DNA of 63,827 nt, the filler included, from Folioceros fuciformis (taxonomy: Eukaryota), in assembly GCA_049999805.1 (NCBI GenBank). It is 22 parts of 22 records of this genome, joined end to end, with 100 filler letters (N's around TTAATTAATTAA, not from the genome) between each part and the next. Parts side by side here need not be neighbours in the genome. Positions count along the whole stretch, not along the records: positions 30,527 to 33,198 come from JBNGIO010000437.1; 21 more parts are not named here. The stretch is one strand, 5' to 3'. Shown here one piece after another: positions 2,515 to 60,355 of this stretch. A program made the position numbers and the translations under genes. Numbering within the stretch: the stretch's first letter is position 1; each line of letters begins with the position of its first letter. The notes under the pieces were generated by a model. The model was given only the letters and a program-made list of their open reading frames with translations, did not search any database and had not been told where the DNA came from.

Positions 2515-3645
2515 CTATTCACCTACTTCTGCAGTCTGTTGTCTAAATGCCGTATCGGCTTGCTTGAGGAAATCATCCCAAGCACTTCCAGGGCCCGTCT
2601 CTACATAATCGAAAGGCACGCCGCTGCATGACCTCACTCCTGGTCGCACCAGGCCCTCGCTCATTACAATCCTAAAGTCTACCCTACACCCCGCCTTTGC
2701 CATATTCTCCTCATTGTCCAAGTTTTCAATGATTTCCACAGAATTCCTAGGATCAAGCGTGTCAACTCCCACACCTAAAGACTGTCCACCATCACGTGCA
2801 GCAGGTGCACAGTTTTGCTCATATTGCTGATAATTCTCTTCCAGTTCCTCCCAGGAGAAGAGCAGAGACAAGGTTGACCCACCCCACGGGTTAAAGTCTA
2901 TCAGCTTCACTCGCAAATCCTTGAGCACATAGCAGTCGAAGGTGTAATCTTCTGTTACAAATCGGGACCTCACGGCATCCTCAAAGAACTGTGCTACCGC
3001 CATCGCCAGGTCCCGCTGGCTCTCCACCAGGGAAGGGTAAAATCCGGTAACCTCCCTCTGGCAGACCCCGACCAGCAGGCCCCTCCTGACGAAGCACCGG
3101 AACTCCATCTCCGGCCGCAGGTCGTACCACTTCCTGAGGGCCAGATAGAATGTGGCGGGCCTGTCCCTACTCCGATCCTCGCACGAATCGAAGGCGTGCT
3201 TCAAGTCGTACGCTATGCTGTCGGACGCCTTGAGCAGCAGGCTGATCTCCCCGAAGTTGCTGCACCGCAGGCTCCCCGAGGAGCTGATCCAGGCGGCATC
3301 GGTGGGAGCGCTCCAGTTGAGCTTTGGGAAGACCTGCCCTCCCAAAGCCTCGATGCATGCCGCTACCTCCTGCTCCAGGGCTGGGAACGAAGGCGCATCC
3401 GCCTCTTCTTGCTCCCCGTCCTCCTCCTCTTCCCAGTGCTGGTAGTCCTCCGCCTGCAGCTCGGGGCACGTGACCTTCGTCCGAGCCGGCATAGCCCCAC
3501 TGGAACTCGGCAGGAACAGGCCGTCCCGCTGCAGGTAGGCAACGAATTCCTCCGGCAGCTCCACTAGCCTCGTCCTGGTGGATGCCTGCCGAAACCGCGG
3601 GTACCAGTCGTGAATCTGGCATCGGAGCACATCTTCCTCCTTCAT
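2515..3645 (-). CDS. CDC123: Cell division cycle protein 123 (D123 family, eIF2 assembly factor), intronless, 376 aa
   Basis: Family motifs CQIHDWYPRF, VFPKLNWSAPTDA, LLKASD, LALRKWY, MEFRCFVR, YTFDCY and LIDFNPWGG; intact ORF. Confidence 0.95.
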   Translation of the reverse strand: MKEEDVLRCQIHDWYPRFRQASTRTRLVELPEEFVAYLQRDGLFLPSSSGAMPARTKVTCPELQAEDYQHWEEEEDGEQEEADAPSFPALEQEVAACIEALGGQVFPKLNWSAPTDAAWISSSGSLRCSNFGEISLLLKASDSIAYDLKHAFDSCEDRSRDRPATFYLALRKWYDLRPEMEFRCFVRRGLLVGVCQREVTGFYPSLVESQRDLAMAVAQFFEDAVRSRFVTEDYTFDCYVLKDLRVKLIDFNPWGGSTLSLLFSWEELEENYQQYEQNCAPAARDGGQSLGVGVDTLDPRNSVEIIENLDNEENMAKAGCRVDFRIVMSEGLVRPGVRSCSGVPFDYVETGPGSAWDDFLKQADTAFRQQTAEVGE

Positions 3646-4014
3646 CGCTGCCGCGGCCAGCCGAGGTCAGTCAATCGTACTTGCCTCGGCGTCCTTCCCT
3701 TGTTCCAAACCTACTACTCCTCACGGATCTGCTTGTCCGAGGCTCAGCGCTACCAAGACCTGTGAATAGACAAGGGTGAACAAGAGCCATGAACTCCACC
3801 ATAAGTGTACACAAAAATTTATGGCTGTCCTGTACAACCTGCTTGCAACGAGGATAGTTCCAGAAGACGTCTCCTTGTCGAACGAGGTGGAACCAAAGGA
3901 AGAACGTATGACGTGCTTGGGGTTCTCGAGAATTCCTGGCATAGTGATTTTTCATCCTACGGAAGAAGCAAAGTTCTATTAGACTACAACAAGGACGGCC
4001 TTCATCATCCTCCT

Positions 4015-4173
4015 CATCAAGCTGAAGGGCATCCTTCTTTGCAGTCTTCAATGACTTTTGATCAAAGCTAAAGGGCATCCTTCTTTGCAGTCTTCCATGA
4101 CTTTTGATCAAAGCTAAAGGGCATCCTTCTCTGCAGCCTTCCATGACTTTTGATCAAAGCTGAAGGGCATCCT
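4015..4173. repeat. 46-bp tandem repeat, ~3.4 copies, between the divergent CDC123 and PsbTn genes
   Basis: Unit gct(g/a)aagggcatccttctttgcagtcttc(a/c)atgacttttgatcaaa starts at 4021, 4067, 4113 and 4159. Confidence 0.9.
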
Positions 4174-4655
4174 TTCCTTCCAGCTTCCTTTGCTTCCAGG
4201 CTTCCTTGCTGACCAATAATGGCCTTTCTTAGATTCTAGTGTTGAAAATGCTTTTGTTTATATTGAATATCTCTACTCTGGTTCTGCTGTGTATTGTATG
4301 TTTTAGCTTGTATCCTATTGGCTGCATCATGTACTGTTGGCTACTGGCTGATTATCCACGGCCGTATGCTTTCCAGAAAATGGCATGAATTTGGTGGTCA
4401 GGATCAGAAAAAACGGATATTCCCTGCAACAGCAAGTGCGATCCTCCCACGGAGGCAAATCGGCAGGCATGTCACACAGGACCTTCTACGGGCACGACGA
4501 AAATGCGATGGCGCGCCGCGTGGCCAGATAGCATTGTCTCCAGACTCTTCCCTTGCTGGCATTGGATTTGAGGAGCCTCGCAAACTCTATCCTCTCGTGA
4601 GCAATTTAAACCACGGGTTGCCCATTCCTCCTAGTTTGTCAACTTTCCTTCTGCC

Positions 4656-5117
4656 ATGGCTTCACTCACCGCTACCTCCGTATCTGTCGCCGCCTCTGCC
4701 AGCTCTCTGGCCGGAGCAAGCATCGGCAAGTCCACATCCGCCAATGTCGTCTCCGTGAAGGTGAGGGAAAGGCGCTACGCAATTGCCTGTCCATCCTTCT
4801 TTGCTTCTGATGCTCTGAGCTGAGGCGCCAGCAACTGCTATGCCGGCGGATCTGTTTGCCAAAGAATGACCTGCCGATGACTTGTGTGAACGCAGATGGC
4901 ACCTGTCAGGTGCTCGGCTGCCGAGCAAAAGGCTGAAGGTGAGGGGATGCAGAGGAGGAAGATGGTCACGCTCGCTGCTGCAGGCGTGTTGGCAGCCTTG
5001 GTGTCCACCACGGGAGCTGCCAATGCGGAAGAGCCTAAGCCCGGAACCAAGGAAGCCTTGAAGAAGTACGCCAATATCTGCGTTTCTCAGCCTACTGCCT
5101 CGATCTGTCACGGTTAA
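4656..5117 (+). CDS. PSBTN: Photosystem II 5 kDa lumenal protein PsbTn, 2 exons (4656-4760, 4896-5117), 108 aa
   Basis: Ser/Ala-rich transit peptide MASLTATSVSVAAS; GT-AG intron 4761-4895; Tat twin-Arg RRKMV, hydrophobic stretch and ANA cleavage site; mature EEPKPGTKEALKKYANICVSQPTASICHG with two Cys. Confidence 0.93.
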
Positions 5118-5429
5118 ACTTCCATGGTTGCTAGTGCAAGAGAAACTCTTGAAAGTTCCGTTCTGTATGCGTAGTTCCCTTCTGTATTCTAGCTCTGTAT
5201 TGCCAATGGTGATGCTTCACGCACGATTGTTAAACGAGTTCCTCCTTCAGGAAATCAATCCTCTGTAGTCTTCATGCTTTTAGTACGATGGAATTTCTCG
5301 AAAGCCGATGCATGGTCCATTTAAGCGTGACATTCGTGAAAGCGTTCACAAGGACAACAATGATGCGGCAAGCTTGCCACTTCCCTGGCGTCAACATCTT
5401 ATCTTGAACACTTCCCTGACGTTGTTATC

Positions 5430-5540
5430 GCATAACAACCTTCGCTATTGCACAACAACCTTCTCTGCTGCGCAATAACCTCGTCTGTTGTACAACATCC
5501 TTCTCTACTGCAGAACAACCTTTCTATTGCACATCAACTC
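5430..5540. repeat. Degenerate ~20-bp minisatellite, ~5.5 copies
   Basis: Units gcataacaaccttcgctatt / gcacaacaaccttctctgct / gcgcaataacctcgtctgtt / gtacaacatccttctctact / gcagaacaacctttctatt. Confidence 0.75.
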
Positions 5541-5864
5541 TTTCCACCAAATGCGTGGACCGGTCTCTGAAGGAAAGGGCTTGCCAATTGTTCTTCAATC
5601 CAATCGGGATACGAAATTCCTAGACCTATTACGAATCTTTACATCTTCTGTGCAAGGAGAAAAATGAATAGCTCATGTGTTTCCCCATCACCTATAATGG
5701 ATCCCTTAACCAAACGAACTCACGGAAGAAGTTCAGTGTTCTGAATACCGTGCAGGCTCGTCAGAATTCACGTTGTTCCAGCGCACGTTCAAGTTGTCCA
5801 ATATCCAAGAGTCTCACATGTACAGCGAAAGAGGATGAATAATATTACAAACGTTCGTGTACAT

Positions 5865-8396
5865 TCAGGTGGGGAGAGGAATCGGCATTTCGCTCTGAAA
5901 GCTCTGAAGCCATACGTATAGGGCCAGGACGAAAAGGAAAGCCTGAATGGTCAGACGCCATCCAACATTCCACGCCCTATTCTGGAAAGTGATGATCTCT
6001 CCCATATCCTGGGAGACTTGTCGGGATGATTCCAGATGCTCGACTTGCTTTCGAAGCGCAAGAACCTTCGATTCTAAAGCGCATCTTAATTTTTCCCCTT
6101 CCCTTAACTGGTCCCCGAGCAACTGCTTCTGTTCTTCTAAAAGCTTATTTCTAGCCTCTCCCCTGTGCCTCCACTCGGATATGATACCTTCTTGGTTGCA
6201 GTCTTGAGATGAGGTAAGACTGGCTTCGGCTTGGAGTTCTACCTGGTGCTCGACCTCAAGTTTAGAATCCATCAGTGCTTGCAAGTCCTTCCACTTTTTC
6301 TCGAAGGAGTCACTCTGATAACTCAGCTCTCTCAACTTCATGGCCTGCTCGGCACATAAGTCACTCAGTCGCTCTGACTGCTGCTCCGCAGCCAATCTGT
6401 TTTTCTCTTCCTGCTCCAAGTTTTCCTGAAACCAATCCAAAGTTTGCCGCATCTCATTCACTTGATCGGCGTACAAAGCCAGCTGGCGACCAGATTGTTG
6501 GGTTCCGTCCACAGTAATTTCTCGACAACCCTCCTTCCTCCTGTTGGCCGCTGAACACTTCAGGCGGCTTAAGTCAAACGTCATCGCAGTCACGTTGTCG
6601 TCCTCTGGAGTTTGTAGGCTACAGAAGCCCGTTTCCTCCTCTTCATCACCAGTAATTAGGAAACCTGTAGTATCCTCTTCTTCTTCCAGTAGGTCTGCCA
6701 CACACATCAGCCACGTCAGAACGGCTGGTCAATTCACGAGGAGCTTTAGACAATCTCCTCCATGCACTCAAAGCATACCTTCTTGATCTTCAGTCTCAGA
6801 GTGAGAGGCATTCAGCGATGGGCTGTTGTAACTTCCGGTGTCTCTGCCTGGACTTTCCAATTCAGATTCCATGGTGAGGTCTTCTGCCTCACTGCTGTCA
6901 TCCTCATTCTCAGTTGTCAGAGCAAACGATTCTGAAAGGCTCGCAGACTCCACCTCGCCATCGTCCTTGTCAGTGTCCTCAACATCAACAACACTGATGT
7001 CCACAGGATCACACACGAATTCGTCATCTATAAACACGGCGTCTTCCTCATCCTCTACCAATCCCACATTTTCCACGGAAACCTCCTCAAAAGCTACAGT
7101 ATCCGTGTTTTCTGTAATAGAGCTCTTAGAGCAGGAGCTGACGTGCATGTCACTAGACTCAACGTGCTCGAAGTCTATCTTCTTCACCACCGAGCAGACA
7201 TCGTCACTGCCCACCGAATAATTCATGACTCCACCACCTACTGCACCGCCGCTATCCTGCTCCGAGTCGCATGACACTTCTCCCTCACTGGGGGTTGGCT
7301 CGTAGCTCTCTCCTGTTCCTTCAGAAAGCTCCCTTACATTCAAAACGGACGACGGACTGGACTCCGGCGCTGGGGAAGTACGGACAGAACTACTATCGGT
7401 CCCCAGCATCGAATCACCCAACGAAATCTGAGAAGGACTGCACAAACTACTCTCAACATCATCAATTTGAAGGGACGCTAAATCTTCTCTTGACAGCTGA
7501 GGCAAAGACGTGGCCACCTCGACCACCACTTCCCTCTTCCGGGGACCCCGTTCTAGCTTCTTGGTTTCCCCTTGAAATCGCTCCATTTCAGAAAGCACCA
7601 GCATACTTCTCTGCCGCTTGCGAGACTTAGGGTTTGTTTGTGGACTCTGTGCTGGGGTCAGTTGGCCTGCATCTCGAATCTTCCTCCCCACCCTTGGAAA
7701 ACGGAAACATCCAGCGGTCAAGTCCTTGTTCAACACCTCAGTATCACTATTACAGCCAACCCTAGAATGGCCTCCCCCTTCGCTGAAATACGGAATTCCT
7801 TTCTCGGTTACAGAAATTCTACTTCTGGTTATGGACGTTCTATTTCTCTCCAAACTAGCATGCCGGGACAGAAGAGCCGCATTCGAGGCCCGTGCCATGC
7901 CATCAAAGTTTTTGATGAGTTTTCCCAGTCTCTCCATATCTTTCCCCAGCGATTCCAGCTCCTGCTGCACAGCCTCCCGTTGTCTAACAGATTCCAACAC
8001 TTCCTCATTCCCAACAACCACATCACTCCCCACCACTCCATCCCCTCCGCTGTCCAGTATCTGCTTATAAAGCTCCCGCTCTTTCTCCAAATGTTCCTCC
8101 AACCTCTGGTCTTTCTCCACCTGATCCGACATCTCAGTCTTGATAAGCTCCTGTACCTGAGTCAGCTCCGTCTCGAATTTCTGCAGCTCAGAATAGCCGT
8201 CGTGTCGCAGCCCCGACACCACACACAGCAGTTCTGCCTCCCGCCGGTTGAGTAGTACAAGACGCGTAGTCACATTCTTCCACTCCGACTTCAATCTCTC
8301 ACGCTCCTTACGGTGTTTTTTAACTGAATCTAGTGCACTTTGAGTGCGGTGAAACAAGGACGCGGAGTCGCCTTCTCCAAGTCTCCATTCTGACAT
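5865..8396 (-). CDS. Coiled-coil, acidic, tail-anchored protein with C-terminal plant KASH-like motif, 2 coding exons (8396-6779, 6694-5865), ~815 aa
   Basis: ORFs 6768-8549 and 5865-6707 are joined in frame by an 84-bp GT-AG intron (6778-6695). N- and C-terminal coiled coils; TM segment LTIQAFLFVLALYVWL followed by QSFQSEMPIPLPT-stop. Confidence 0.8.
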
Positions 8397-9328
8397 CACC
8401 CGGGCCCCTGCTGCAGCCGGCACTGAGGATGAGCATACTGACACGACACGGTACCATCCACCACAACCCTGCCCCCTCCACGTGCAGGCAACAAGAGCGA
8501 TCTGGCCAGCTCCCAAACCCCGGATCTCCACCACAACAGCACAGGGCAAGCACCAACTCCCTCAAATGAACCTCGGAGACCAAGACCCGAACCGAACGCC
8601 AAGAATGCGCTGACAAGAACTTGTCCAATACCATCACACTAACTCGGAACCTGACACAAACACGACCACAAACTCTCCCTGGCTGGAACGGGCAGACCAC
8701 ATACCTCCTGTTCCTGTCCGTTCCCCTCCACTCTCCGCACTCGTCAGTCCTTTAACGTTCTTCCTACCGATCAAGGCGCATTGTCTGCAGCCCGGCCTGC
8801 GCGAGGATGTTTCTGGACAGTACAATTCGCTTGTGGCCGTGTCGCCGAGACCTGCTACTGCCGCCTTGGAATGGCCTGCAGCAGCCCATCTGGACTGCGC
8901 ACAATCGTCTCGGCGCTGTGCGCATTGCCTCCTCCGCACCAAAATTATCGAGAATATCCAAAAATAAAAAGCGACCAAAAGTGAAAGTGATTTTTGTGAA
9001 GGCACATGAACGGTGAACGAAGCTACTCCATAGCTACATAATACATACCGTGTTAGCTGAATATGGCAAATATGTACGTACATATGAACCTATCTTGGTG
9101 TATTGGTTGTACGCTGAAAGCATCGATGATCGATTGAGCAATCAACGGCGATGAATGCCATCCTGACTACAAAGCACGGGTGCATGGGAGTTGAAGGGAA
9201 CAAAGCTCACTACACACCAACCGACGTGACTTTGTGGGAATAGGAGCCTTACTAAGATCCGGGCTTTCATTTGCGAGAACGGGGAGAACATCTGCGGGGA
9301 GACTGGTCGGGCTTCACATTGCGGCCGA

Positions 9329-11046
9329 ATGGAGGACAGGTACTTGCTGGTGGGATCCTCTGCTGAGCATGGCTAGCTTTAGGCGGCCGGTCTTTCTACT
9401 CTGATTGAATCTGATCCGTGTGGTGGCGTGCTGTGAGTAGGTTCAACACTCCCCACACGGCTGCAGTCGAGGTGGATGTTTTAGGGCACAGTCTTCACAT
9501 TGTTCAGGTTGGGAACACAAGTTTGTCGAAGTTGTTGTTGCTAGGCATGGCAGAATTGGTTGTGATTTTGTGGAGGGAACGCAGGATCCTAATTCTAAGC
9601 ACCTGGGTACGACTGTTTGGGATTCTTCAGTGGTGTTCGTCAAGTTTCTGGTGCGTGGGCCTTCCTAGTCATGGTTGCAGACTTACGTGGTAGAAGGGAT
9701 TGATGGGGCACTTTTTGTTTGCAGGAGAAGAACAGCAGGAAGGGGGAGTTCAGTCGTGCCAATATGGCGGGCAAGAGAGCAATCGAACTTGGTGCCGGGT
9801 GTGGCCTAGCGGGACTTGGTGAGAGGCTCTATCATAAGGAGACTATGCCACATGTGCACAAACGTCCGCCCTGTGCAACTGAGAGATAAGAACCTCGATT
9901 GCTGCCAGGCATGGCTCTGTTAGGATGCGACGTGGTGGTCACGGACCAGGTGGATGTCCTACCTCTTCTTCTCAGAAATAGCGAGCGGAATCTGGCTCGA
10001 GCCAAGTACACGGCTTCTGAAAATTCCTTCGCAGGTGTATCAAGTGCAAATCATCGAGCTCATGGCACTAGTTCCATCAGCGGACGTTTGCATCTAACCA
10101 GGGATTTTTAGTTATCTGTGCAGGGCCCGTGGGATCGGTGGAAGTAGCGGAGCTGGATTGGGGAAATGAGCTTCAGATCGCGGCTGTCGGTCCCCCATTC
10201 GACTTCATCGTTGGCACCGACGTTGTGAGAACACCTGTCTAATAAGCCTCTTCCACTAGCAACAGCCGCAACCATGTATGTCACTAGTCTGCAGGAAGTT
10301 GTTCCTTACCGATGTCGAAGGGCATGTGTTCCCGAAGGTGATGTTGAGCGATCTTTGAATGATACAGGTATACAAAGAACACTTGCTAGAACCTCTTTTC
10401 AAGACAATCAATCTACTATCGGGACCGAAAACCAAAGTCATCGTAAGCTTGGGTCTTTTCGAAGAATGTGATGTGATTGCTAACTGTTCCTAGCTCATCT
10501 CTCACTCTTTTCTAGTTCCTCGCAGCTGGCTTATGAATTTCGTGCGAGTGACGTGAAAGAGAAGCTGGACAGACTTCTGAAGGATAGGTTTTCTGTGAAG
10601 AAGGTTCAACGATCTAAGGTGAAAGTGTGTTTACACTACTGCAAGGCTCGTGATTATTTTGGCCCGTAGGACCAATGCAATGCAATGCATACTGTCTGTG
10701 CAGATGGACAGTAAATATCAACATGCCAATATCGAGCTGTACATCCTCGCTCCGCTGCCTGAGCAGGTAATCCACTATTTTAGAAGCATGAGTGTTCAGG
10801 GTTTGATCACTGCACACTTTTGCAGCAACATGAACCTACCCACCTTTGTAGCAGGAAGGTGTATCCGGGAGGTCAGAATCTGCTTCTCTTCAAGCTGATT
10901 CTTGCAGCCCTATCAGATCGGACTCTGACAACTCTAGTACAGAACGTGGAATTGGGAGCCAATGGGAGTCTCGCAGGATGGGAGCTTCTGCTGCACGGCT
11001 GCTGGCCAGTATTGAGGTTCCGGCTATGGACACAGCTCTGGATTGA
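9329..11046 (+). CDS. METTL21/Methyltransf_16-family protein-lysine methyltransferase, ~10 exons
   Basis: Manually spliced exons give MEDRFNTPHT...DPNSKHLGTTVWDSS...KRAIELGAGCGLAG...VVTDQ...AELDWGN...FDFIVGTDVVY...WESRRMGASAARLL; all introns are GT-AG. Confidence 0.9.
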
Positions 11047-12066
11047 GCACAATTTACGAGGAGAATAGTAATTAAAAATCTTCATAGTGATTAGCATTAC
11101 CCTTCTTTTATAGTCAGTGTTTATCTTCTATATACTTGTTCTGTGTATTAATCTCATGTGCGCCTCTGTTTCAAATGCCGCTTCACACCCTTTACCAAAG
11201 TGAAATTCCAGGTCAAATAGAGTATGGGCTTTTCTTGAGCTGTAAGCTTCGTCCTTGTCAAAGGTTCCCTCCTCTCAGTGTCAAGTGTCAGCCATTTCTT
11301 GCCATCCGCATCAAAGCCTATAGGAAACCCTTGGGTTTGCGAGACCGTCAAAACCCTTCACTACCCTTCCAGAGTTTAAACACTCGGTGGACCTCAAGGC
11401 TCAGGTTCAGTCACGTCGGTGAACATCTACCTGGATTCCAGAGTCGTTAAGCTTAGTCTCTATCCACATGGAGGCTGGCGGGAGAAGGTGCTTAAATAAG
11501 GGAGAAAGAGGCCACTGCACACTCTGAATGGCTTCTTACCTTCCAGACCCTTCATTTGCGTGAAGATGGACACCGGGAGACAGATCTCGAACGGGAGACT
11601 AGGCCAGGGTGTGGCGATGGAACTGGGTCTTTCGACAGAAGTCAACAGTTCAGAACGCTGGTTAGCTTATCACGTAGTTTCAAATCAAACCCTACTGACG
11701 CCAAACAAAGAAACCCAAATGCGCACAGGAGACAGGCGGACAGAGTCAAACGGTCAAAATCGTTTCTAAAAGGACACGTCATCATCACTGAATGTACAGC
11801 ATGTGCACCATACCAAACTTCCTGGGTTAGTGTGCATCCCTACTACGTTAGTAGACTGAAGTGGGAGAGACTATAATAAGAACCATAGGTGCCAGGGCGG
11901 TGTGTATTAGCCTGCCCACAGCAACAAACACCCTGAGGTGACTTCATCAAACAGGATGGTCAAAAAGGAGTACGACCAATGCATTAGGAGCTCCACTCTT
12001 GCTACCTAATAGTTGAACCAGGCTACGTTGTATGTATGCCGGTATCCAACCCGGTCTTTCCGAGAC

Positions 12067-12779
12067 TCAGTTCGGAACCGTCTGAACAATCTGCTGGAAC
12101 AATCTCTGCTTTTTTAACCTGGTAGAGGTCATCAGCAACTTTCTCTTACCCTGTACTGGAGGCACAGCTGCTGAAGGTGGTACCCAAGACGAAGAGGAAG
12201 AGAGTCCCGCGCCGGATTGCTGGGTGTCGAAGGGAACCATGTCTAAAACCTTGCCCAATTCGACGCTGTCGGCCGACAAGTTGCCGGTTCTCATGAGATA
12301 GGAAGCTGCATCCTCATCGTCTTCAAGCCCCGCCGAAGCCAGCTCCTGGGATATAGATGACGAGGACTCCCATGATCCTGCCCTAACGAAAAAAGACATG
12401 GCATCCTCCTCATCCCCAACAGCAAGAGGTTGGTTCTTGTCATCCCGCGCCGCCCCTTCAGCAGTTCCGTCATCTAGACCGGGCCCATCCTCACTCAACG
12501 AGGACCTCAGCCGCTGGACCATTTCCTCATCGTAAATTCCCTGCGTCCGCGCAATGTACGCCACGAAGTCCTCATCCTTGTTGGGCGGCGTCACCCCTGT
12601 AATGCCGGAGACGGCAAACCCTCCAGCCAGCAATGCCTCAAAATCCTCAACATCAAACTGGCTGCTGCTCCCCTCCATATCCCCGCTGCACGCCCGCTGA
12701 GTCTCCTTCCCACTCCTAGAAGACGACGCCGAAGGCTGGCTCACGGCCGCTGACGAATCCGACGACGCCGGCCCCGCAC
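12067..12779 (-). CDS. Unknown acidic ORF, open at the contig end, possibly transposon-derived
   Basis: 225+ aa open frame with an internal repeated motif; no recognised domain. Confidence 0.35.
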
Positions 12780-12879
12780 NNNNNNNNNNNNNNNNNNNNN
12801 NNNNNNNNNNNNNNNNNNNNNNNTTAATTAATTAANNNNNNNNNNNNNNNNNNNNNNNNNNNNNNNNNNNNNNNNNNNN

Positions 12880-12946
12880 GTGGGATAAGTGTGGCCACTA
12901 AAGGTGGAACCCGTCGGCAATCAGTGCCCGGGGTTTTCCCTCCACA
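12880..12946 (+). mobile_element. LTR family B 3' end
   Basis: gtgggataagtgtggccactaaaggtggaaccc...cctccaca, shared with copies ending near 38788, 41002, 48516 and 62433. Confidence 0.8.
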
Positions 12947-13083
12947 ATCGCAGAGAAGCAAGCGTTCTTGAAAATGATAACCACCATGTCACATATTCCA
13001 TCCTAGGATAGGAAAGAATGCAACGCAGCAATTACCACGCATGAAGCATCAGGCTAGAACAGTGATTAGGGGATCAAAGTCCG

Positions 13084-28291: not shown

Positions 28292-29323
28292 TTCTAAATA
28301 ACTAAGCTATAAGTATTATAGCGTACGTAGATTAGATTAAGTTAATTACTTAGAGATTACTTCTAACTACTATATAAGCTTTATATTTATTAAAGTATCT
28401 ATTTTAATTAAGCTTATACTTAAATATTTACTTTATAGGTAAGAAATAATTTTCTACTTCTAATAGATTAATTTCCTTCTAGGTATCTATAGTAAGTAGT
28501 ATATTTATTTTCTTCTATACTACTTACTTAAAGAGTAAGCTATATAAATATATATAGAGATCTTTCTACTTATTTAGTTCTAGTAGAAAATTATCTCTAT
28601 AAAGGTAATATTAATATTATTTTAAAGAAGTTTATAGAAGTTTTTTATAAGTAATTACTATAGCTATTATAGTATTTACTATAATTAGCTACTTATTTAG
28701 ATTCTAAGCTTTAAGCTTAAAGAAAATATTATTTAAAAAGCTATTCTACTACTTACTTATTAGTTTATATAGTAGTAAGTATACTTTTAAGCTATTAGTA
28801 CTTTTAAGATTATTATAGTTATTACTACTATTAAAATCTAGGTCTTAATTATAGATTCTCTTACTTAAGTAAGTAAGTAGTCTCTATACTTACTATACGT
28901 AAAATTCTTAAGAAGCTATATATACTACTTTATCTAGAGCTATAGAAGCTTTAGTACTAGATTAAAAGATAGGCTATTAAGTATTCTATACTTCTATAAT
29001 TAAGCCTATTATAAAGCTTATTTCTTTAGCTAAGTATACTTTCTAGAAGCTACTAGCTTACTTAATTATTCTATTTTCTAGTTTAGGTATTTACTTAGAA
29101 GTTTAAAGACTTATTATCTTTTATTATTTTACTTAGATTTCTAATAGCTTACTAGCTAAGCTTACTATCTATATAGAAGCTAATACTTACTTAATAAAAT
29201 TACTTAGTTAGCTAACTTAGTAATTTATCTTACTAGTACTTTTACTCTCTAACTTATACTTAGAGTATAATAATTAATTAATATTACTAGTCTAATTATA
29301 TATAGTAATAGAAAGCTTATTAT
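28292..29323. other. RIP-mutated AT-rich contig (fungal)
   Basis: No CA or TG dinucleotide found by eye, with a very large TA excess; no ORFs. Confidence 0.85.
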
Positions 29324-30426: not shown

Positions 30427-30784
30427 NNNNNNNNNNNNNNNNNNNNNNNNNNNNNNNNNNNNNNNNNNNNTTAATTAATTAANNNNNNNNNNNNNNNNNN
30501 NNNNNNNNNNNNNNNNNNNNNNNNNNGAGCTGCCAACGGCGAGCTCAAGCTCACCGTGCTGCGCTCCTAGGCTTTACTCTCCCCAAAGTTTCTTTTCCTG
30601 CAGCATTGTCATGAGGGCGCAAAAGAGCTTTCCATACTTGACTTGGCTCAGAATGCCAAAAGATAGCAGGAGCTAACTAGGCTTGGTACTTACACGCCAA
30701 GAACAACGCCAGAACTAAAACTAATAGGAGCTTACAAGAACTAACCACGGCTAACTGGGCTTAGCACGACGGAGCGCCAAGAGC

Positions 30785-32902
30785 TATAGGCGTCACCTCA
30801 TTAAGCGGTCTATAGTCACCACACATCCTCTTTTCAGTCCAATTACCATGCACATCCTTCTTTGGTGGGAGCACCGTAGTTGCTACATACTCTGATTCCG
30901 AAGATCTTATCAATCCAGCTTCAAGCAACTCTTGACATTTCTTGTCCACAATCTCATTCTCCAATTTACTCAAACAGTATGGCCTTCTAAAAACTGCTAC
31001 TTCCCAAAATCTTTACAAAATCCTCCCTATCCTCCAAGGTTATCTCATCAGAAATATCCCATTGAAAATCCATACACTCTTATTTCTCACAGACGTTAAC
31101 CTCACAGCTTGAGCTAGCCACATTCCCAGCTTTTCTTTCCGCGTCTTCCACCTTTGCCCCATATCTCATTTGCTTGCTCTACTTGCAGTCATCACCTAAA
31201 ACCTCATCATGCTCTCTCATTCTCTTAGTCTCCCCCCCAGCGTCTAGGCCTTCATCTCTTCCTACTTCACCTAAACTATGTCCTTCCAACCTTGTGCTTA
31301 AAATAACTTTCCACTTTCTCTTCCACTCCTGATAAACTTTTATAGACATCATAAGCCATCTGACTGTATTCAAATCCATAGCTTGTCCAAGTTTTTTATT
31401 CCTCTGCTCAAATGTTATACCCTCCACTTGAGTAGCATTTGTATCAAAACCCATCGCCCTCTCTCTCTCCATGGGAGATGGCACATCCCACACTTTCCTC
31501 TTCGTATCAAATATCATCCCAAGCCCTTCCCCTTTAAATGCATTGGCGCCCTCAAAACTTACAAATGTTAGTAACGCCCTCCTGAGTTCCCCCTTTTTAT
31601 TTACACAATAAAAGGGTTGTTCATCATCTGAAGTCACCTGCCTACTCACTCGCCCCTCATCTAATATTTGATCAACTATTAAATCATCATCCATTTGCCA
31701 CTGACTCAAAAGCATGTGCAACAAATGCCTAGGCATCATGTTATTCCAAAAACAGCGATGCCTGTGAGCCCTAGATCCAAACTGCACTGCATCCAACTTT
31801 ATAGGTTCACCCAAATAATACTTGATCTCCTCAAAATCTCGCCTCAACGCTACTCTTCTATCCATTTGGGAATCCACATTCTCAATAAAAGAACCACATT
31901 CTTTCTTTTGATGCTTTTGCACCAAATTCAAAATCCTAATCAGCTCATAAAATAACACCGACCTATAATCCAACAAGCCTTTTCCCTTGCCTACCATTGA
32001 ATGCCCTTAACATTCCCAGCCAGCTATTATCAGATCAACTTCTTCTTCCACTTGAAATTGTACCAATCCAATAAGCCTAACATCTTGCGGCCAAACACAA
32101 AACGCTTGCTTCACAGCTTCAACCTTTAATTGCTCAAGATACTTTTTGCATAATTTAAACACCCTTGCCTTCGCAATTGCCTGACAAACTTCATCTGGAT
32201 CACAATAAATGTAACGTCTGATCACATACCTAGCAGCCAACACAACCTCCAGACCAGATGCAATCCCAGCAAATAACTCAACCACAACCAATCCATACCC
32301 AGACGAACTCAATGTCACAAGTTTATTACACACAGGTTCAAGTTTACAAACTGCTTCCTTTGTACAAAACTGAATTTTATCATCTAGCTGAAACTCAGTC
32401 TGTCGTTTTTCAAGCTCTCTAAAAATTTCAGCTAATGCTCTACAAACATTTTCTCTCATTGTGATCTCCTCTACTCTATTATGACTATATTCCTTTAAAC
32501 ATAACTTATCCATATGACGCTCCCCCCACAACTTATCATCTTCATCTTCTTCCCCCTGCTCATTCCAAGAAGTCGTCATGTTTACTACACACGCATCTTG
32601 CATGTCCTCCTGTAATTGCAACTTAAGTGGAATTGTTGCTGCTCTCATTCCTTCACCTTGTCGCCACCCTGGACGATAGAAAAACTCCTATGTCCATAAG
32701 TCTACTCCTCCTCCATGCATGAATAAAGCCTCTATCCCTCAAATAACATCAAAATTTCCAGACTTGACAATCAAACATTTCATATCAATCGCTGTCTCTT
32801 CTTCTGTCCCATGCTTGAAACATAACTGCAATTTCTCTTTAGTTTCCCCTATAACTGCCTCCAGGCCTCCATTGGCCATCCTAATCTTCCATCTTGTCTC
32901 CT
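30785..32902 (-). mobile_element. Ty3/Gypsy pol fragment: protease - C5 DNA methyltransferase - reverse transcriptase N-terminus (decayed)
   Basis: Protease IRMANG...FDVI*GIEAL...GGGVD; DNMT motifs I-X in the same frame; then, after a frameshift, RRPYCLS...ELLEAGLIRSSESEY...KKD...RMCGDYRPLNEVT. Confidence 0.9.
31345..32292 (-). pseudogene. DNMT3-like C5 cytosine DNA methyltransferase domain inside Gypsy pol
   Basis: I VELFAGIASG; II YIYCD; III QDV; IV DLIIAGWEC*GHS; V GLLDYRSVLF; VI FIENV; VII LDA; VIII AHRHRCFWNN; IX PMERERAMGF; X RNKKLGQAM. One in-frame stop at 32007-32009. Confidence 0.9.
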
Positions 32903-33298
32903 TGTGAACGAAAAAAACTTTCGGAACCCCCATTTTGAGCGACGGAATGAGCAGGTTGTGATTTTTTTTGTGAAGGGACATGCAAATCGGCTTAGTAGGT
33001 GAATAAGACCAGGGTGTTTATACCCAAAGTCCCCCTTGGGCTTCGGGGTTTGGGGTGTACTGGAAACCGGGACAAGGAGGGGGAATGAGCGAGTGCCTCC
33101 TTGGCCCTCGGGTCATTGAGAACATTAAGGACCAGGTCTGTAGGTAGGTGAGTGGGGTATGTCCTTGGCCTTTGGTGGTCCGGGACCCCTTAGGTCTCNN
33201 NNNNNNNNNNNNNNNNNNNNNNNNNNNNNNNNNNNNNNNNNNTTAATTAATTAANNNNNNNNNNNNNNNNNNNNNNNNNNNNNNNNNNNNNNNNNNNN

Positions 33299-59164: not shown

Positions 59165-60355
59165 GTATATAATACTAAGTACTTAGTAATTAGTAGTACT
59201 TAGTACTACTAAGTATACTAAGTAAACTAAGTAGAATATATAAGAAATATATATATAGATTTTATAATTTAATATTATTAGAATATTATAATTAACTTAG
59301 TTATTTAACTTAGATACTATACTTAAGACTACTTAGTTATCTTAACTTAGTCTATTAAACTTACTCTATCTATAAAACTTAACCTAAGTACTACTATACT
59401 TAATACTTATATTTATTATATATCTTAAGTACTTTATATACTCTTAGGTATAGCCTATAATATCTTCTTACTATTACTTCTACCTCTAGCTACTACTACT
59501 ACTACTATATTCTCTTCTTAGTAGAGTCTTTTATAGAAGTACTTATCTAGTACTAGTAGGCTTAAAAGTTCTTTAAGAAGCTTCTAGAGATTCTTATAGT
59601 ATAGAAGTCTAATACTCGATACTTTAGTACCTTAATAATATTCTATTCTATTCTATAGTTATCTTCTAATCTATTATAGTTATAGTTAGTATTTAATCTA
59701 GGCGTATATATTTTATAGATTAAGTTAATTCTTAAAGTATTTAAACTATAGCTTAAGTAGGTTTTTAGTAAGCCTATTAGTAGGTATCTTACTTATTAGT
59801 AAGTACTATACTTAAAATAATTCTTTAGTATATTTCTATTATAGCTATATATTCTATATATTTATATAGTATAGCTTTATAGTAATTCTTTTATTTACTT
59901 CTACTACTAAGTAGATTATTTACTAATTATTATAGAAGATTCTCTAAGTAGTACTTAGATTAAGAGTAATCTTATTAAAGAAGTACTTTATAGTAATTAC
60001 TTCTTTACTTATATACTTTAGTACGAGTAGCTCTACTTCTATTATTAAAGTTATTACTTTTAATTAGTAAGCTACTTTTTATAAGATTACTCTACTAAAG
60101 AGCTATATAATATATCTATAAGATAATCTTCTAGTTTTCTAATTATTAGTAAATAAGATATCTCTATAAATTAGAAGCTCTATTTTTTCGTAGTTACTAT
60201 ATTAAATAGTAAGGTACTAAGTTCTATAGAGGTAGATAATTACTCTATAAATAGTATCGAAGTACTTTTTACTTAAATTTATAAGAAACTATAAGAGCTT
60301 TAATACTATATATACTATATTAGAATAGATTATTATTACTATATAGAAAAGTAAT
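59165..60355. other. Second RIP-mutated AT-rich contig (fungal)
   Basis: No CA or TG dinucleotides found by eye; TA-saturated. Confidence 0.85.

What the first reader, a model, noticed from the sequence alone, without database searches (positions are those of the whole stretch)
30785..32902. Ty3/Gypsy retrotransposon encoding its own C5 DNA methyltransferase inside pol (PR-DNMT-RT)
Seen: one minus-strand frame runs from a retropepsin C-terminus (IRMANG...FDVI*G.EAL) through a linker into an unpermuted C5-MTase with all the main motifs (ELFAGIA, DLIIAGWEC, DYRSVLF, IENV, AHRHRCFWNN, ERERAMGF, LGQAM). After a frameshift or small deletion it reaches the Gypsy RT start (RMCGDYRPLN). Established: motifs VIII-X resemble DNMT3-type enzymes, and DNMT-carrying retrotransposons have been described in dinoflagellates and charophyte algae. 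They are not a recognised part of land-plant retroelement lineages. Inference: if this contig belongs to the plant, the lineage persisted into, or moved into, an embryophyte. The MTase would be released from the polyprotein and packaged, so it could methylate the cDNA in the particle. That would amount to self-marking that evades or pre-empts host silencing.
Basis: partly seen in the sequence, partly recalled or inferred. Interest (0 to 1): 0.88.

Follow-up and report, generated by a model that had tools for sequence, protein, structure and literature searches.

The report
Dead Gypsy retrotransposon fragment carrying DNMT3
This is a broken piece of a jumping gene that carries its own DNA-methylating enzyme, a type known from green algae related to land plants, and here it sits in what is probably, but not provably, a land-plant genome.

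Summary
Window 30787-32902 (minus strand) holds the C-terminal half of a retropepsin, a linker, a complete unpermuted DNMT3-type C5 methyltransferase domain and the first 68 residues of a Ty3/Gypsy RT.

The same Gag-PR-DNMT-RT-RH-INT order occurs in proteins of Klebsormidium nitens, four Closterium strains and unnamed metagenome contigs. The element therefore belongs to the streptophyte "Gypsy-DNMT3" lineage described in 2018. It is not a chance nesting of a host gene.

This copy is dead. It has five in-frame stops and one frame change, with about 20 codons missing.

It belongs to a multi-copy family in one organism's DNA run, where up to 15 different contigs cover a single place. Pieces 90-94% alike occur in a run of a second organism from another study.

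The host is not established. No genome is held, and the window is a string of unlinked short contigs, two of which look fungal. One plant-like gene on another contig is as far from each land-plant lineage as those lineages are from each other. No land-plant relative of the element was named.

Self-methylation of cDNA remains inference. Verdict: a new member of a known kind, of moderate interest.

The parts
30527..30786 (.). Left flank. An unrelated very high-copy repeat, not part of the element; the element's RT is cut off here.
   Evidence: Summed depth of 3000-13000 in X1, against 100-330 over the element. Loose ends at 30786 and 30810. Found 99-100% alike in runs of organisms A, B and C. 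No RT continuation in any frame.
30787..30994 (-). N-terminal 68 residues of a Ty3/Gypsy reverse transcriptase (VFRRPYCLSK...KRMCGDYRPLNEVT), in a different frame from the DNMT.
   Evidence: tblastn identity: P0002 60%, P0018 61%, P0010 55%; L001 62%. These relatives carry Pfam RVT_1, RNase H and rve domains.
30995..31325 (-). DNMT-RT linker, decayed. Stops at 31181-31179 and 31082-31080. Frame change near 31000, with about 20 codons missing relative to L001 and P0002.
   Evidence: Three-frame translation; comparison with L001 and P0002.
31326..32345 (-). Unpermuted DNMT3-type C5 cytosine methyltransferase domain with motifs I, IV, VI, VIII, IX and X all recognisable. A stop at 32009-32007 replaces the Gln of motif IV (W-E-C-Q).
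   Evidence: PF00145 at 28.6 bits, cut-off 22. 41% identity over 340 gap-free residues to P0002. The 29 best PDB sequence matches are all DNMT3A/B/C. AlphaFold pLDDT 90.6, and every Foldseek match listed is a DNMT3 chain. Motif alignment.
32346..32687 (-). PR-DNMT linker, acidic and poorly conserved.
   Evidence: Lies inside the single tblastn segments to P0005, P0010 and L001.
32688..32902 (-). C-terminal half of a retropepsin-type aspartic protease (ETRWKIRMANGG...NFDVI-stop-GIEALF...DLWT-stop), with stops at 32741-32739 and 32690-32688. The active-site half is missing.
   Evidence: Alignment with the proteases of 8 type A proteins. The P0028 protease passes Pfam gag-asp_proteas (34 bits, cut-off 28.2) and Asp_protease_2. 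Pfam finds nothing in the window piece alone.
32903..33198 (.). Right flank. Another high-copy repeat with a periodicity of about 64-65 nt, not part of the element; the protease is cut off here.
   Evidence: Depth 800-2300 in X1. Four contigs each show loose ends at 32902 and 32903. Direct repeats spaced 65 and 64 nt apart.

Best explanation
Window 30787-32902 is a dead, doubly truncated copy of a Ty3/Gypsy LTR retrotransposon of the streptophyte 'Gypsy-DNMT3' lineage. This is the same kind as KnitGypsy-Dnmt3 of Klebsormidium nitens and unreported relatives in Closterium. The single Gag-Pol frame of these elements reads zinc knuckle, protease, DNMT3-like C5 methyltransferase, RT, RNase H, integrase.

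The copy belongs to a multi-copy, diverged family in the source genome. It has decayed mainly by C-to-T type transitions.

How intact elements probably work is inferred, not shown. The DNMT would be made as part of Gag-Pol between PR and RT. It would therefore travel with the replication machinery and methylate the element's own newly made cDNA or fresh insertion. The new copy would then enter the genome already carrying the host's mark. I put this at about 35%. The main alternative is a DNA-binding or targeting role with little or no catalysis.
For: Architecture:
- PR C-terminus, DNMT and RT are collinear on one strand.
- The same order occurs in 21 of 158 related proteins examined. These include the 2188-residue P0010, which has zf-CCHC, Asp_protease_2 (below the cut-off), DNA_methylase, RVT_1, RNase H and rve.
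- It also occurs in locus L001 (PR-DNMT-RT in one frame) and in L002. In L002, 307-nt direct repeats 94.5% alike lie about 8.7 kb apart, bracketing DNMT-RT-RH-INT.

Relatives:
- Named type A relatives are 12 Closterium proteins and K. nitens GAQ93235.1.
- In the DNMT tree the window falls in a clade of 22 rows with SH-aLRT support of 100. That clade holds all 13 type A rows.

DNMT3 type:
- The 29 best PDB sequence matches are all DNMT3A/B/C, both for the single sequence (E 1e-9) and for the profile (97 bits; DRM 54, HhaI 45).
- The model has pLDDT 90.6, and all listed Foldseek matches are DNMT3 chains with E about 1e-18.

Family in the genome:
- 595 contig pieces of run X1 lie on the contig: 131 at 99% or more, and 464 at 85-99%.
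- Every bin of the element is covered, and up to 15 different contigs overlap one place.
- At the motif IV stop and at the 31181 stop, nearly all other copies do not carry the stop.
- Run X3 (organism B, a different study) holds three pieces 90-94% alike, two of them inside the DNMT domain.

Decay:
- 22 of the 35 best-supported differences inside the element are of the kind in which this copy has T or A and the others have C or G (my count from table 3).
- CpG observed/expected is 0.42.

Precedent: de Mendoza et al. 2018 (PMC5890265; sections 9-11 read).
Against: - No LTR, primer-binding site, target-site duplication, RNase H or integrase of this copy can be seen. No whole genome is held, so no intact copy could be sought.
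- Pfam alone does not detect the window's protease or RT pieces.
- The closest relatives are only 40-43% identical in the DNMT. The window sits on a long branch of 1.01 with unresolved neighbours.
- Motif IV reads E-C, not the canonical P-C.
- KnitGypsy-Dnmt3 gave no methylation in yeast (PMC5890265, section 10). Catalysis is therefore unproven for the whole lineage.
Confidence: 0.85

Rival explanations
1. The contig does not belong to the plant-like genome. It comes from an associated streptophyte alga, or another organism, that was co-assembled with it.
For: - The window is 22 unlinked short contigs joined by spacers.
- Two of them (28292-29323 and 59165-60355) are 21% GC and hold no CA or TG dinucleotide, which resembles fungal RIP. 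More than one organism was therefore probably assembled.
- Every relative that carries an organism name (14 of 29 looked up) is a green alga.
- No copy lies elsewhere in the window.
Against: - The element is joined on both sides, within one contig, to repeats of very high depth in run X1. These repeats also occur 99-100% alike in runs of organisms A, B and C from three studies.
- The element family itself is multi-copy in X1.
- Pieces of it are assembled in X3, a small run of another organism from another study.
- CpG depletion and GC content resemble those of the other contigs.
- Caveats: X1 may be the run the window was assembled from, the contig could be chimeric at the repeats, and host single-copy depth was not measured.
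Confidence: 0.2
2. The DNMT domain of this lineage is not an active methyltransferase. It serves instead as a DNA-binding or chromatin-targeting module, for example steering integration, or it acts on RNA.
For: - Motif IV is W-E-C-Q instead of P-C in 14 of 19 type A proteins and 36 of 87 type B proteins.
- KnitGypsy-Dnmt3 gave no methylation in yeast (PMC5890265, section 10). The authors call this inconclusive, because human DNMT3B also failed.
Against: - The catalytic Cys, the ENV motif, the R-x-R of motif VIII and the motif IX and X residues are conserved across the family and in the window copy.
- The invariant columns include the motif IV Cys and the motif VI Glu.
- de Mendoza 2018 reports Ka/Ks below 0.2 for the K. 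nitens DNMT domains (section 9).
Confidence: 0.3
3. A host DNMT3 gene landed by chance in, or was recently captured by, one Gypsy copy.
For: Only one copy is visible in the window.
Against: - The DNMT is in the same frame as the protease.
- The architecture is shared with 21 proteins and with loci from other organisms.
- The DNMT region is covered by many diverged contigs at the same depth as the PR and RT parts.
- The DNMT clusters with retroelement DNMTs.
Confidence: 0.02
4. The element is in a land plant but arrived by horizontal transfer from an alga, rather than persisting vertically.
For: No land-plant relative was seen among the names looked up. The distribution of the lineage is patchy.
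Against: - The window's DNMT is no closer to any algal element (34-43% identity) than those elements are to each other. It sits on its own long branch.
- A related copy 90-94% alike occurs in a second organism.
- Neither point excludes an old transfer.
Confidence: 0.15

Closest known systems
KnitGypsy-Dnmt3 of Klebsormidium nitens (de Mendoza et al. 2018, PMC5890265)
   Same: - An LTR Gypsy element with an unpermuted Dnmt3-type domain inside the Pol frame.
- K. nitens GAQ93235.1 (P0047) reads zinc knuckle, protease, DNMT, as the window does.
- Its DNMT falls in the same clade.
- It is multi-copy and decayed or silenced in its host.
   Different: - Only 34% identical in the DNMT.
- K. nitens keeps F-P-C-Q in motif IV, while the window has W-E-C and then a stop.
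- The host is different and unresolved.
- I could not confirm that P0047 is one of the published copies, because supplements are closed.
Unreported Gag-PR-DNMT-RT-RH-INT elements of Closterium spp. (NIES-53, -54, -65, -68) and of unnamed metagenome contigs (P0002, P0010, P0018, L001, L002)
   Same: - Same domain order.
- Same W-E-C-Q motif IV in most of them.
- 36-43% identity in the DNMT and 55-62% in the RT start.
   Different: None exceeds 43% identity, and the window is a separate long branch. I found no paper describing the Closterium elements (listing only).
Type B elements, RT-RH-DNMT-INT-PHD (e.g. Chromochloris zofingiensis Cz02g39130, P0009)
   Same: Homologous DNMT3-like domain (30-40% identity) carried in a Gypsy pol.
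   Different: The DNMT sits between RNase H and integrase, with a C-terminal PHD finger. These DNMTs form the other side of the tree.
Cellular DNMT3A/3B/3C (solved structures) and plant DRM2
   Same: Same fold, with motif order I-X unpermuted as in DNMT3. Motifs I and VIII look DNMT3-like (the DNMT3A motif wording is recalled). Best PDB matches by sequence and by fold.
   Different: - 21-23% identity.
- No PWWP or ADD domain.
- E-C rather than P-C in motif IV.
- About 50 extra residues.
- DRM2 is permuted and scores far lower: 43-54 bits against 97.
SymbioDIRS-Dnmt3 and SymbioLINE-Dnmt of Symbiodinium (PMC5890265)
   Same: A retrotransposon-encoded DNMT. The cDNA self-methylation idea comes from these elements.
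   Different: Different retrotransposon classes (DIRS, LINE) and independent acquisitions, according to the paper. Not compared here.

Membership tests
C5 cytosine DNA methyltransferase (Pfam PF00145) | Profile match above the curated cut-off. | tested here: met
   28.6 bits against a cut-off of 22 on the read-through with X at the stops. The 275-residue ORF piece alone scores 14 bits, below the cut-off.
C5 cytosine DNA methyltransferase (Pfam PF00145) | Catalytic motifs: I (F-x-G-x-G type), IV (Pro-Cys), VI (E-N-V), VIII (R-x-R), IX and X. | tested here: inconclusive
   Motifs I, VI, VIII, IX and X and the motif IV Cys are present. Motif IV has Glu in place of Pro, as in most of the retroelement family. 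In this copy the next codon is a stop.
DNMT3 family (as opposed to DNMT1/CMT, DRM, DNMT2 and bacterial enzymes) | Unpermuted domain that is closest to DNMT3 by sequence and by fold. | tested here: met
   The 29 best PDB sequence matches are all DNMT3A/B/C. All Foldseek rows listed are DNMT3 chains, with target-normalised TM-score up to 0.82.
DNMT3 family (as opposed to DNMT1/CMT, DRM, DNMT2 and bacterial enzymes) | Placement inside the DNMT3 clade in a tree that includes all eukaryotic DNMT families. | not tested
   No reference set of cellular DNMTs could be obtained. de Mendoza 2018 (section 9) places the K. nitens copies in a divergent Dnmt3-related clade.
Ty3/Gypsy LTR retrotransposon | Gypsy-type RT and pol order PR-RT-RH-INT. 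| tested here: inconclusive
   Only 68 RT residues and half a protease survive in the window. Relatives with the same PR-DNMT-RT junction continue into RVT_1, RT_RNaseH and rve.
Ty3/Gypsy LTR retrotransposon | Long terminal repeats, primer-binding site, target-site duplication. | not testable with these tools
   The copy is cut by other repeats at 30786 and 32903, and no genome is held. In relative L002, 307-nt direct repeats bracket DNMT-RT-RH-INT.
Streptophyte Gypsy-DNMT3 lineage (KnitGypsy-Dnmt3 type) | DNMT3-like domain in frame between protease and RT. | tested here: met
   Single tblastn segments run from the protease into the DNMT, and RT follows downstream. K. nitens P0047 has the same order.
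Streptophyte Gypsy-DNMT3 lineage (KnitGypsy-Dnmt3 type) | DNMT monophyletic with those of the K. nitens and Closterium elements. | tested here: met
   Clade of 22 rows with SH-aLRT support of 100, holding all 13 type A rows and the window. This was a quick search with the LG+G4 model and the tree is unrooted.
Embryophyte (land-plant) host | The contig is physically or statistically tied to a genome that places inside land plants. | tested here: inconclusive
   - A CDC123 ORF on another contig is 53-61% identical to each land-plant lineage, the same range as those lineages show to each other.
- It forms its own clade with one unnamed protein, and no alga was available to root the tree.
- There is no physical link between the contigs, and two contigs look foreign.

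The most novel reading that the evidence does not exclude
A Gypsy-DNMT3 retrotransposon family lives in the genome of a land plant from a poorly sampled deep lineage, and in at least one related species. It would descend from the streptophyte-algal elements, and most copies would still keep the DNMT motifs intact. That would make it the first methyltransferase-encoding retrotransposon recorded in embryophytes. It would also open a test of whether a transposon can write its own 5mC in a genome that uses 5mC against transposons.
Probability: 0.45. Interest if true: 0.65.

Novelty: new member of a known kind. Interest (0 to 1): 0.45.

Why it matters
Retrotransposons that encode a de novo DNA methyltransferase reverse the usual picture, in which the host methylates the parasite. 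In the green lineage they have been described in print only from one charophyte. This finding adds a distinct member in a new host, possibly a land plant.

The searches it prompted also show that the family is much larger than published:
- 1067 clusters at 50% identity were found in public protein space.
- There are two fixed architectures.
- Motif IV usually reads E-C rather than the canonical P-C.

If the host is confirmed as an embryophyte, with its RdDM, CMT and MET1 pathways, natural copies would allow a direct test of self-methylation.

Tried and rejected
- Whole-genome search: none is held. I therefore could not look for intact copies, LTRs or target-site duplications, or run a coverage test against host genes.
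- Second copy in the window: none found.
- Pfam on the separate ORF pieces gave nothing above the cut-off.
- The search for homologous proteins at near length found none.
- Rfam found nothing in the whole window at gathering score, nor in the contig at E up to 1.
- Earlier findings by place, relatives or sequence gave nothing. By words there was one diatom note.
- No RNA holder is listed. Run X5, guessed to be RNA, covers only the left-flank repeat and 32 nt of a conserved RT motif. This says nothing about expression.
- Run X6 (organism C) showed only flank repeats, 39-nt matches and one unclear joint. I draw no conclusion from it.
An intact ORF piece gave a DNA cytosine methyltransferase cluster at 0.95, and 28 of 30 hits shared that family set.
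The CDC123 ORF is intronless and may be a retrocopy, which would make its position unreliable.
- Literature: searches found no report of a DNMT-bearing Gypsy element in land plants. They also found none in Closterium, and none of the RT-RH-DNMT-INT-PHD type. Beyond the papers named below I saw listings and abstracts only. Supplements are closed, so the species tables of de Mendoza 2018 and of PMC12344493 could hold cases I cannot see.
- Rejected: permuted DRM-type enzyme (motif order is I-X); bacterial MTase origin (HhaI scores 45 bits against 97 for DNMT3A).
Full report
**What the window is.** The 63.8-kb window is not one piece of chromosome. It is 22 short contigs (1-10.6 kb) joined by 100-base spacers made of 44 N, TTAATTAATTAA and 44 N. 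The finding lies in one 2672-base contig, 30527-33198. Nothing outside that contig is physically linked to it. No whole genome is held for the window, and no second copy lies in the window.

**The observation.** On the minus strand, one frame (33017..31179) was read through with X at each stop to give P0001. It contains:
- the C-terminal half of a retropepsin;
- an acidic linker;
- a 340-residue C5-MTase domain (32345-31326).

The first 68 residues of a Gypsy RT follow at 30994-30791, in another frame.

PF00145 scores 28.6 bits on the read-through, above the cut-off of 22. On the ORF piece alone it scores 14 bits, below the cut-off. Pfam sees neither the protease piece nor the RT piece. Relatives identify both:
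- P0005 and P0010 align in single tblastn segments from inside their protease through the whole DNMT (E 2e-77 and 7e-62).
- P0002, P0018 and P0010 match the RT start at 55-61% identity.
- Locus L001 does both.
- The protease of Closterium P0028 passes two Pfam protease models.

An alignment of eight such proteases shows that the window keeps only the half after the D(T/S)GA site.

**State of this copy.** The PR-DNMT-linker frame has five stops, at 32741, 32690, 32009 (in motif IV), 31181 and 31082. Near 31000 the frame changes, and about 20 codons present in L001 and P0002 are missing. Both ends are cut.

Contigs of public runs were laid on the stretch. They show that 30527-30796 and 32867-33136 are other repeats. 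Their summed depth in run X1 is 3000-13000 and 800-2300, against 100-330 over the element. The right flank has a 64-65 nt periodicity.

**A family, not a one-off.** In run X1 (organism A, DNA), 595 contig pieces lie on the stretch. Of these, 131 are 99% or more alike and 464 are 85-99% alike. Every bin of the element is covered, and up to 15 different contigs overlap a single place. The listed pieces have depths of 8.7-12.5 each. The tool warns that summed depth is not a copy number, so I claim only 'multi-copy and diverged'.

At two of the stops (motif IV and 31181), nearly all other copies do not carry the stop: 140.9 of 150.8 and 61.1 of 61.1 depth units respectively. The table does not show the other three stops.

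Of the 35 best-supported differences inside the element, 22 are of the kind in which this copy has T or A and the others have C or G. Eight run the other way and five are transversions (my count from table 3; 242 further differences were not shown). CpG observed/expected is 0.42. This is the ordinary decay of a methylated repeat.

Run X3 (organism B, a different study) holds three pieces 90-94% alike, two of them inside the DNMT domain. X1 may be the run the window was assembled from, so only X3 counts as independent.

**What it is related to.** An exhaustive search of 1.84 billion cluster representatives with the linker-plus-DNMT stretch (window 32687-31182) found 1067 proteins at E up to 1e-3 and 154 at E up to 1e-30. 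The best is 40% identical.

I mapped domains on 158 proteins using seeds taken from Pfam-annotated members. The 158 comprise the 150 listed, two and six cluster members. They sort as follows:
- 21 are type A (zinc knuckle-PR-DNMT-RT-RH-INT), the window's order.
- 88 are type B (RT-RH-DNMT-INT-PHD).
- 48 show only the DNMT.
- 1 shows no DNMT.

I looked up 29 relatives by exact sequence, and 14 carry an organism name. Twelve are from Closterium (four strains) and one is K. nitens GAQ93235.1; eleven of the Closterium proteins and the K. nitens one are type A, and the twelfth Closterium protein (P0021) shows only the DNMT but lies in the type A clade. One Chromochloris zofingiensis protein is type B. 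Fifteen are unnamed, and none is a land plant.

The DNMT tree has 76 rows. I capped type B at 30 rows and left out domains under 270 residues and duplicate cluster members. It splits with SH-aLRT support of 100 into two sides. One side has 22 rows: all 13 type A, seven DNMT-only, one type B and the window. The other has 54 rows: 29 type B and 25 DNMT-only. The window sits on a long branch (1.01) with unresolved neighbours.

A metagenome scan gave 37 loci; I mapped domains on the first nine (L001-L009). L001 carries PR-DNMT-RT in one frame. L002 has 307-nt direct repeats 94.5% alike, about 8.7 kb apart, bracketing DNMT-RT-RH-INT. The downstream repeat is cut by the contig end.

**The enzyme.**
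- By sequence, the 29 best of 48 PDB matches are all DNMT3A/B/C (E 1e-9 to 3e-5), followed by M.HhaI at 1e-3.
- A profile of 18 family members gives DNMT3A 97 bits, DRM 54 and 43, HhaI 45 and DNMT2 24. DNMT1 is not listed at E up to 0.01.
- The AlphaFold model of the window's domain has pLDDT 90.6 and pTM 0.90. Every Foldseek row listed is a DNMT3 chain, with E of 3e-18 to 2e-15 and target-normalised TM-score up to 0.82.
- Motif order is unpermuted, so it is not DRM-like.
- One oddity: motif IV reads W-E-C-Q rather than P-C in 14 of 19 type A and 36 of 87 type B proteins. K. nitens keeps F-P-C-Q.

**Known precedent.** de Mendoza et al. 2018 (PMC5890265; abstract and sections 9, 10, 11 and 15 read) described KnitGypsy-Dnmt3. 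It has intronless Dnmt3-related domains in the Pol ORF of an LTR Gypsy element of K. nitens, with Ka/Ks below 0.2, and its copies are methylated at CHH and CHG. The isolated domain gave no methylation in yeast, which the authors call inconclusive. Self-methylation of cDNA is their hypothesis, argued mainly for the DIRS elements.

A 2026 preprint (10.64898/2026.05.21.726589; passages read) lists 'streptophytes (Gypsy-DNMT3)' among known cases. PMC12344493 (passages read) repeats the 2018 report. Eight literature searches found no land-plant case. Supplements are closed.

**The host.** Other contigs carry plant-type genes: an intronless CDC123 ORF (2518-3645, minus strand), a chloroplast-RNP-like RRM exon (my reading) and a CCT fragment (my reading).
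- CDC123 finds 962 homologues. The best is an unnamed Logan protein at 59% identity.
- Named hits at 50-56% over nearly the full length are liverworts, Sphagnum, lycophytes, a fern, gymnosperms and Amborella, and two Adiantum proteins reach 60% over three quarters of it. No charophyte is named among the 120 listed.
- Its identity to each land-plant lineage is 53-61%. Those lineages show 47-68% to each other.
- In the tree it forms its own clade with the unnamed protein (support 99), near the lycophyte-bryophyte/euphyllophyte split. No alga was available to root the tree.
- It may be a retrocopy, which would make its position unreliable.

Two contigs (21% GC, no CA or TG dinucleotide at all) look like fungal RIP products, so the assembly is probably not a single organism.

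I put the chance that the element sits in a land-plant genome at roughly 45-50%, and the chance that it is a co-assembled alga at about 20%.

**Mechanism.** It is shown that the DNMT is translated in the Gag-Pol frame between PR and RT in relatives with open frames. It is also shown that its catalytic-type residues are conserved across the family.

The rest is inferred. The DNMT would be processed or carried with RT in the particle or pre-integration complex. It would then methylate the new cDNA or insertion. I put this at about 35%. A rival role in binding or targeting gets about 30%, given the E-C motif IV and the negative yeast assay. The remainder goes to RNA methylation or copy-number self-restraint. 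None of this applies to the window copy, which is dead.

**Verdict.** This is a new member of a known kind, and the land-plant claim remains open.

Noticed in passing
window 28292-29323 and 59165-60355: Two contigs with 21% GC hold no CA or TG dinucleotide at all and are rich in TA. This is the signature of heavy fungal RIP-type mutation, which suggests DNA of a second organism in the assembly.
   Followed up: partly
whole window (21 spacers, e.g. 30427-30526): The window is 22 short contigs joined by spacers of 44 N, TTAATTAATTAA and 44 N. Neighbouring features are therefore not physically linked.
   Followed up: yes
P0002-P0153 (relatives), motif IV: Most retroelement DNMT3-like domains read W-E-C-Q instead of the canonical Pro-Cys: 14 of 19 type A and 36 of 87 type B proteins. 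Whether such enzymes are active is unknown.
   Followed up: partly
P0003, P0006, P0009, P0015 and others; loci L005-L007, L009: A second, larger architecture, RT-RH-DNMT-INT-PHD, accounts for 88 of the 158 proteins examined. One named member comes from Chromochloris zofingiensis. I found no paper describing it (listing only).
   Followed up: partly
P0025 (1611 aa): This protein has type B domain order, but its DNMT falls in the type A clade. That hints at exchange of the DNMT module between the two architectures.
   Followed up: no
window 2518-3645 (-): An intact, intronless 376-residue CDC123 homologue. Its only close relative (P0160, 59-62% identity) has the same length and lies on a 17-kb Logan contig. 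This may be an old retrogene shared by a poorly sampled lineage.
   Followed up: partly
L002 5910-6216 and 14657-14963: Direct repeats of 307 nt, 94.5% alike, bracket DNMT-RT-RH-INT in a 42-kb metagenome contig. This looks like an LTR pair of a type A element. The downstream copy is cut by the contig end.
   Followed up: partly
window 33033-33175: The right flank of the element is a high-copy repeat with a 64-65 nt period.
   Followed up: partly
run X6 (organism C), table 5: One 5.4-kb contig of depth 65 matches 39 nt around DNMT motif I and 31 nt of the RT motif, with 1403 nt of the window between them unaccounted for. It may be a diverged family member in a third organism.
   Followed up: no
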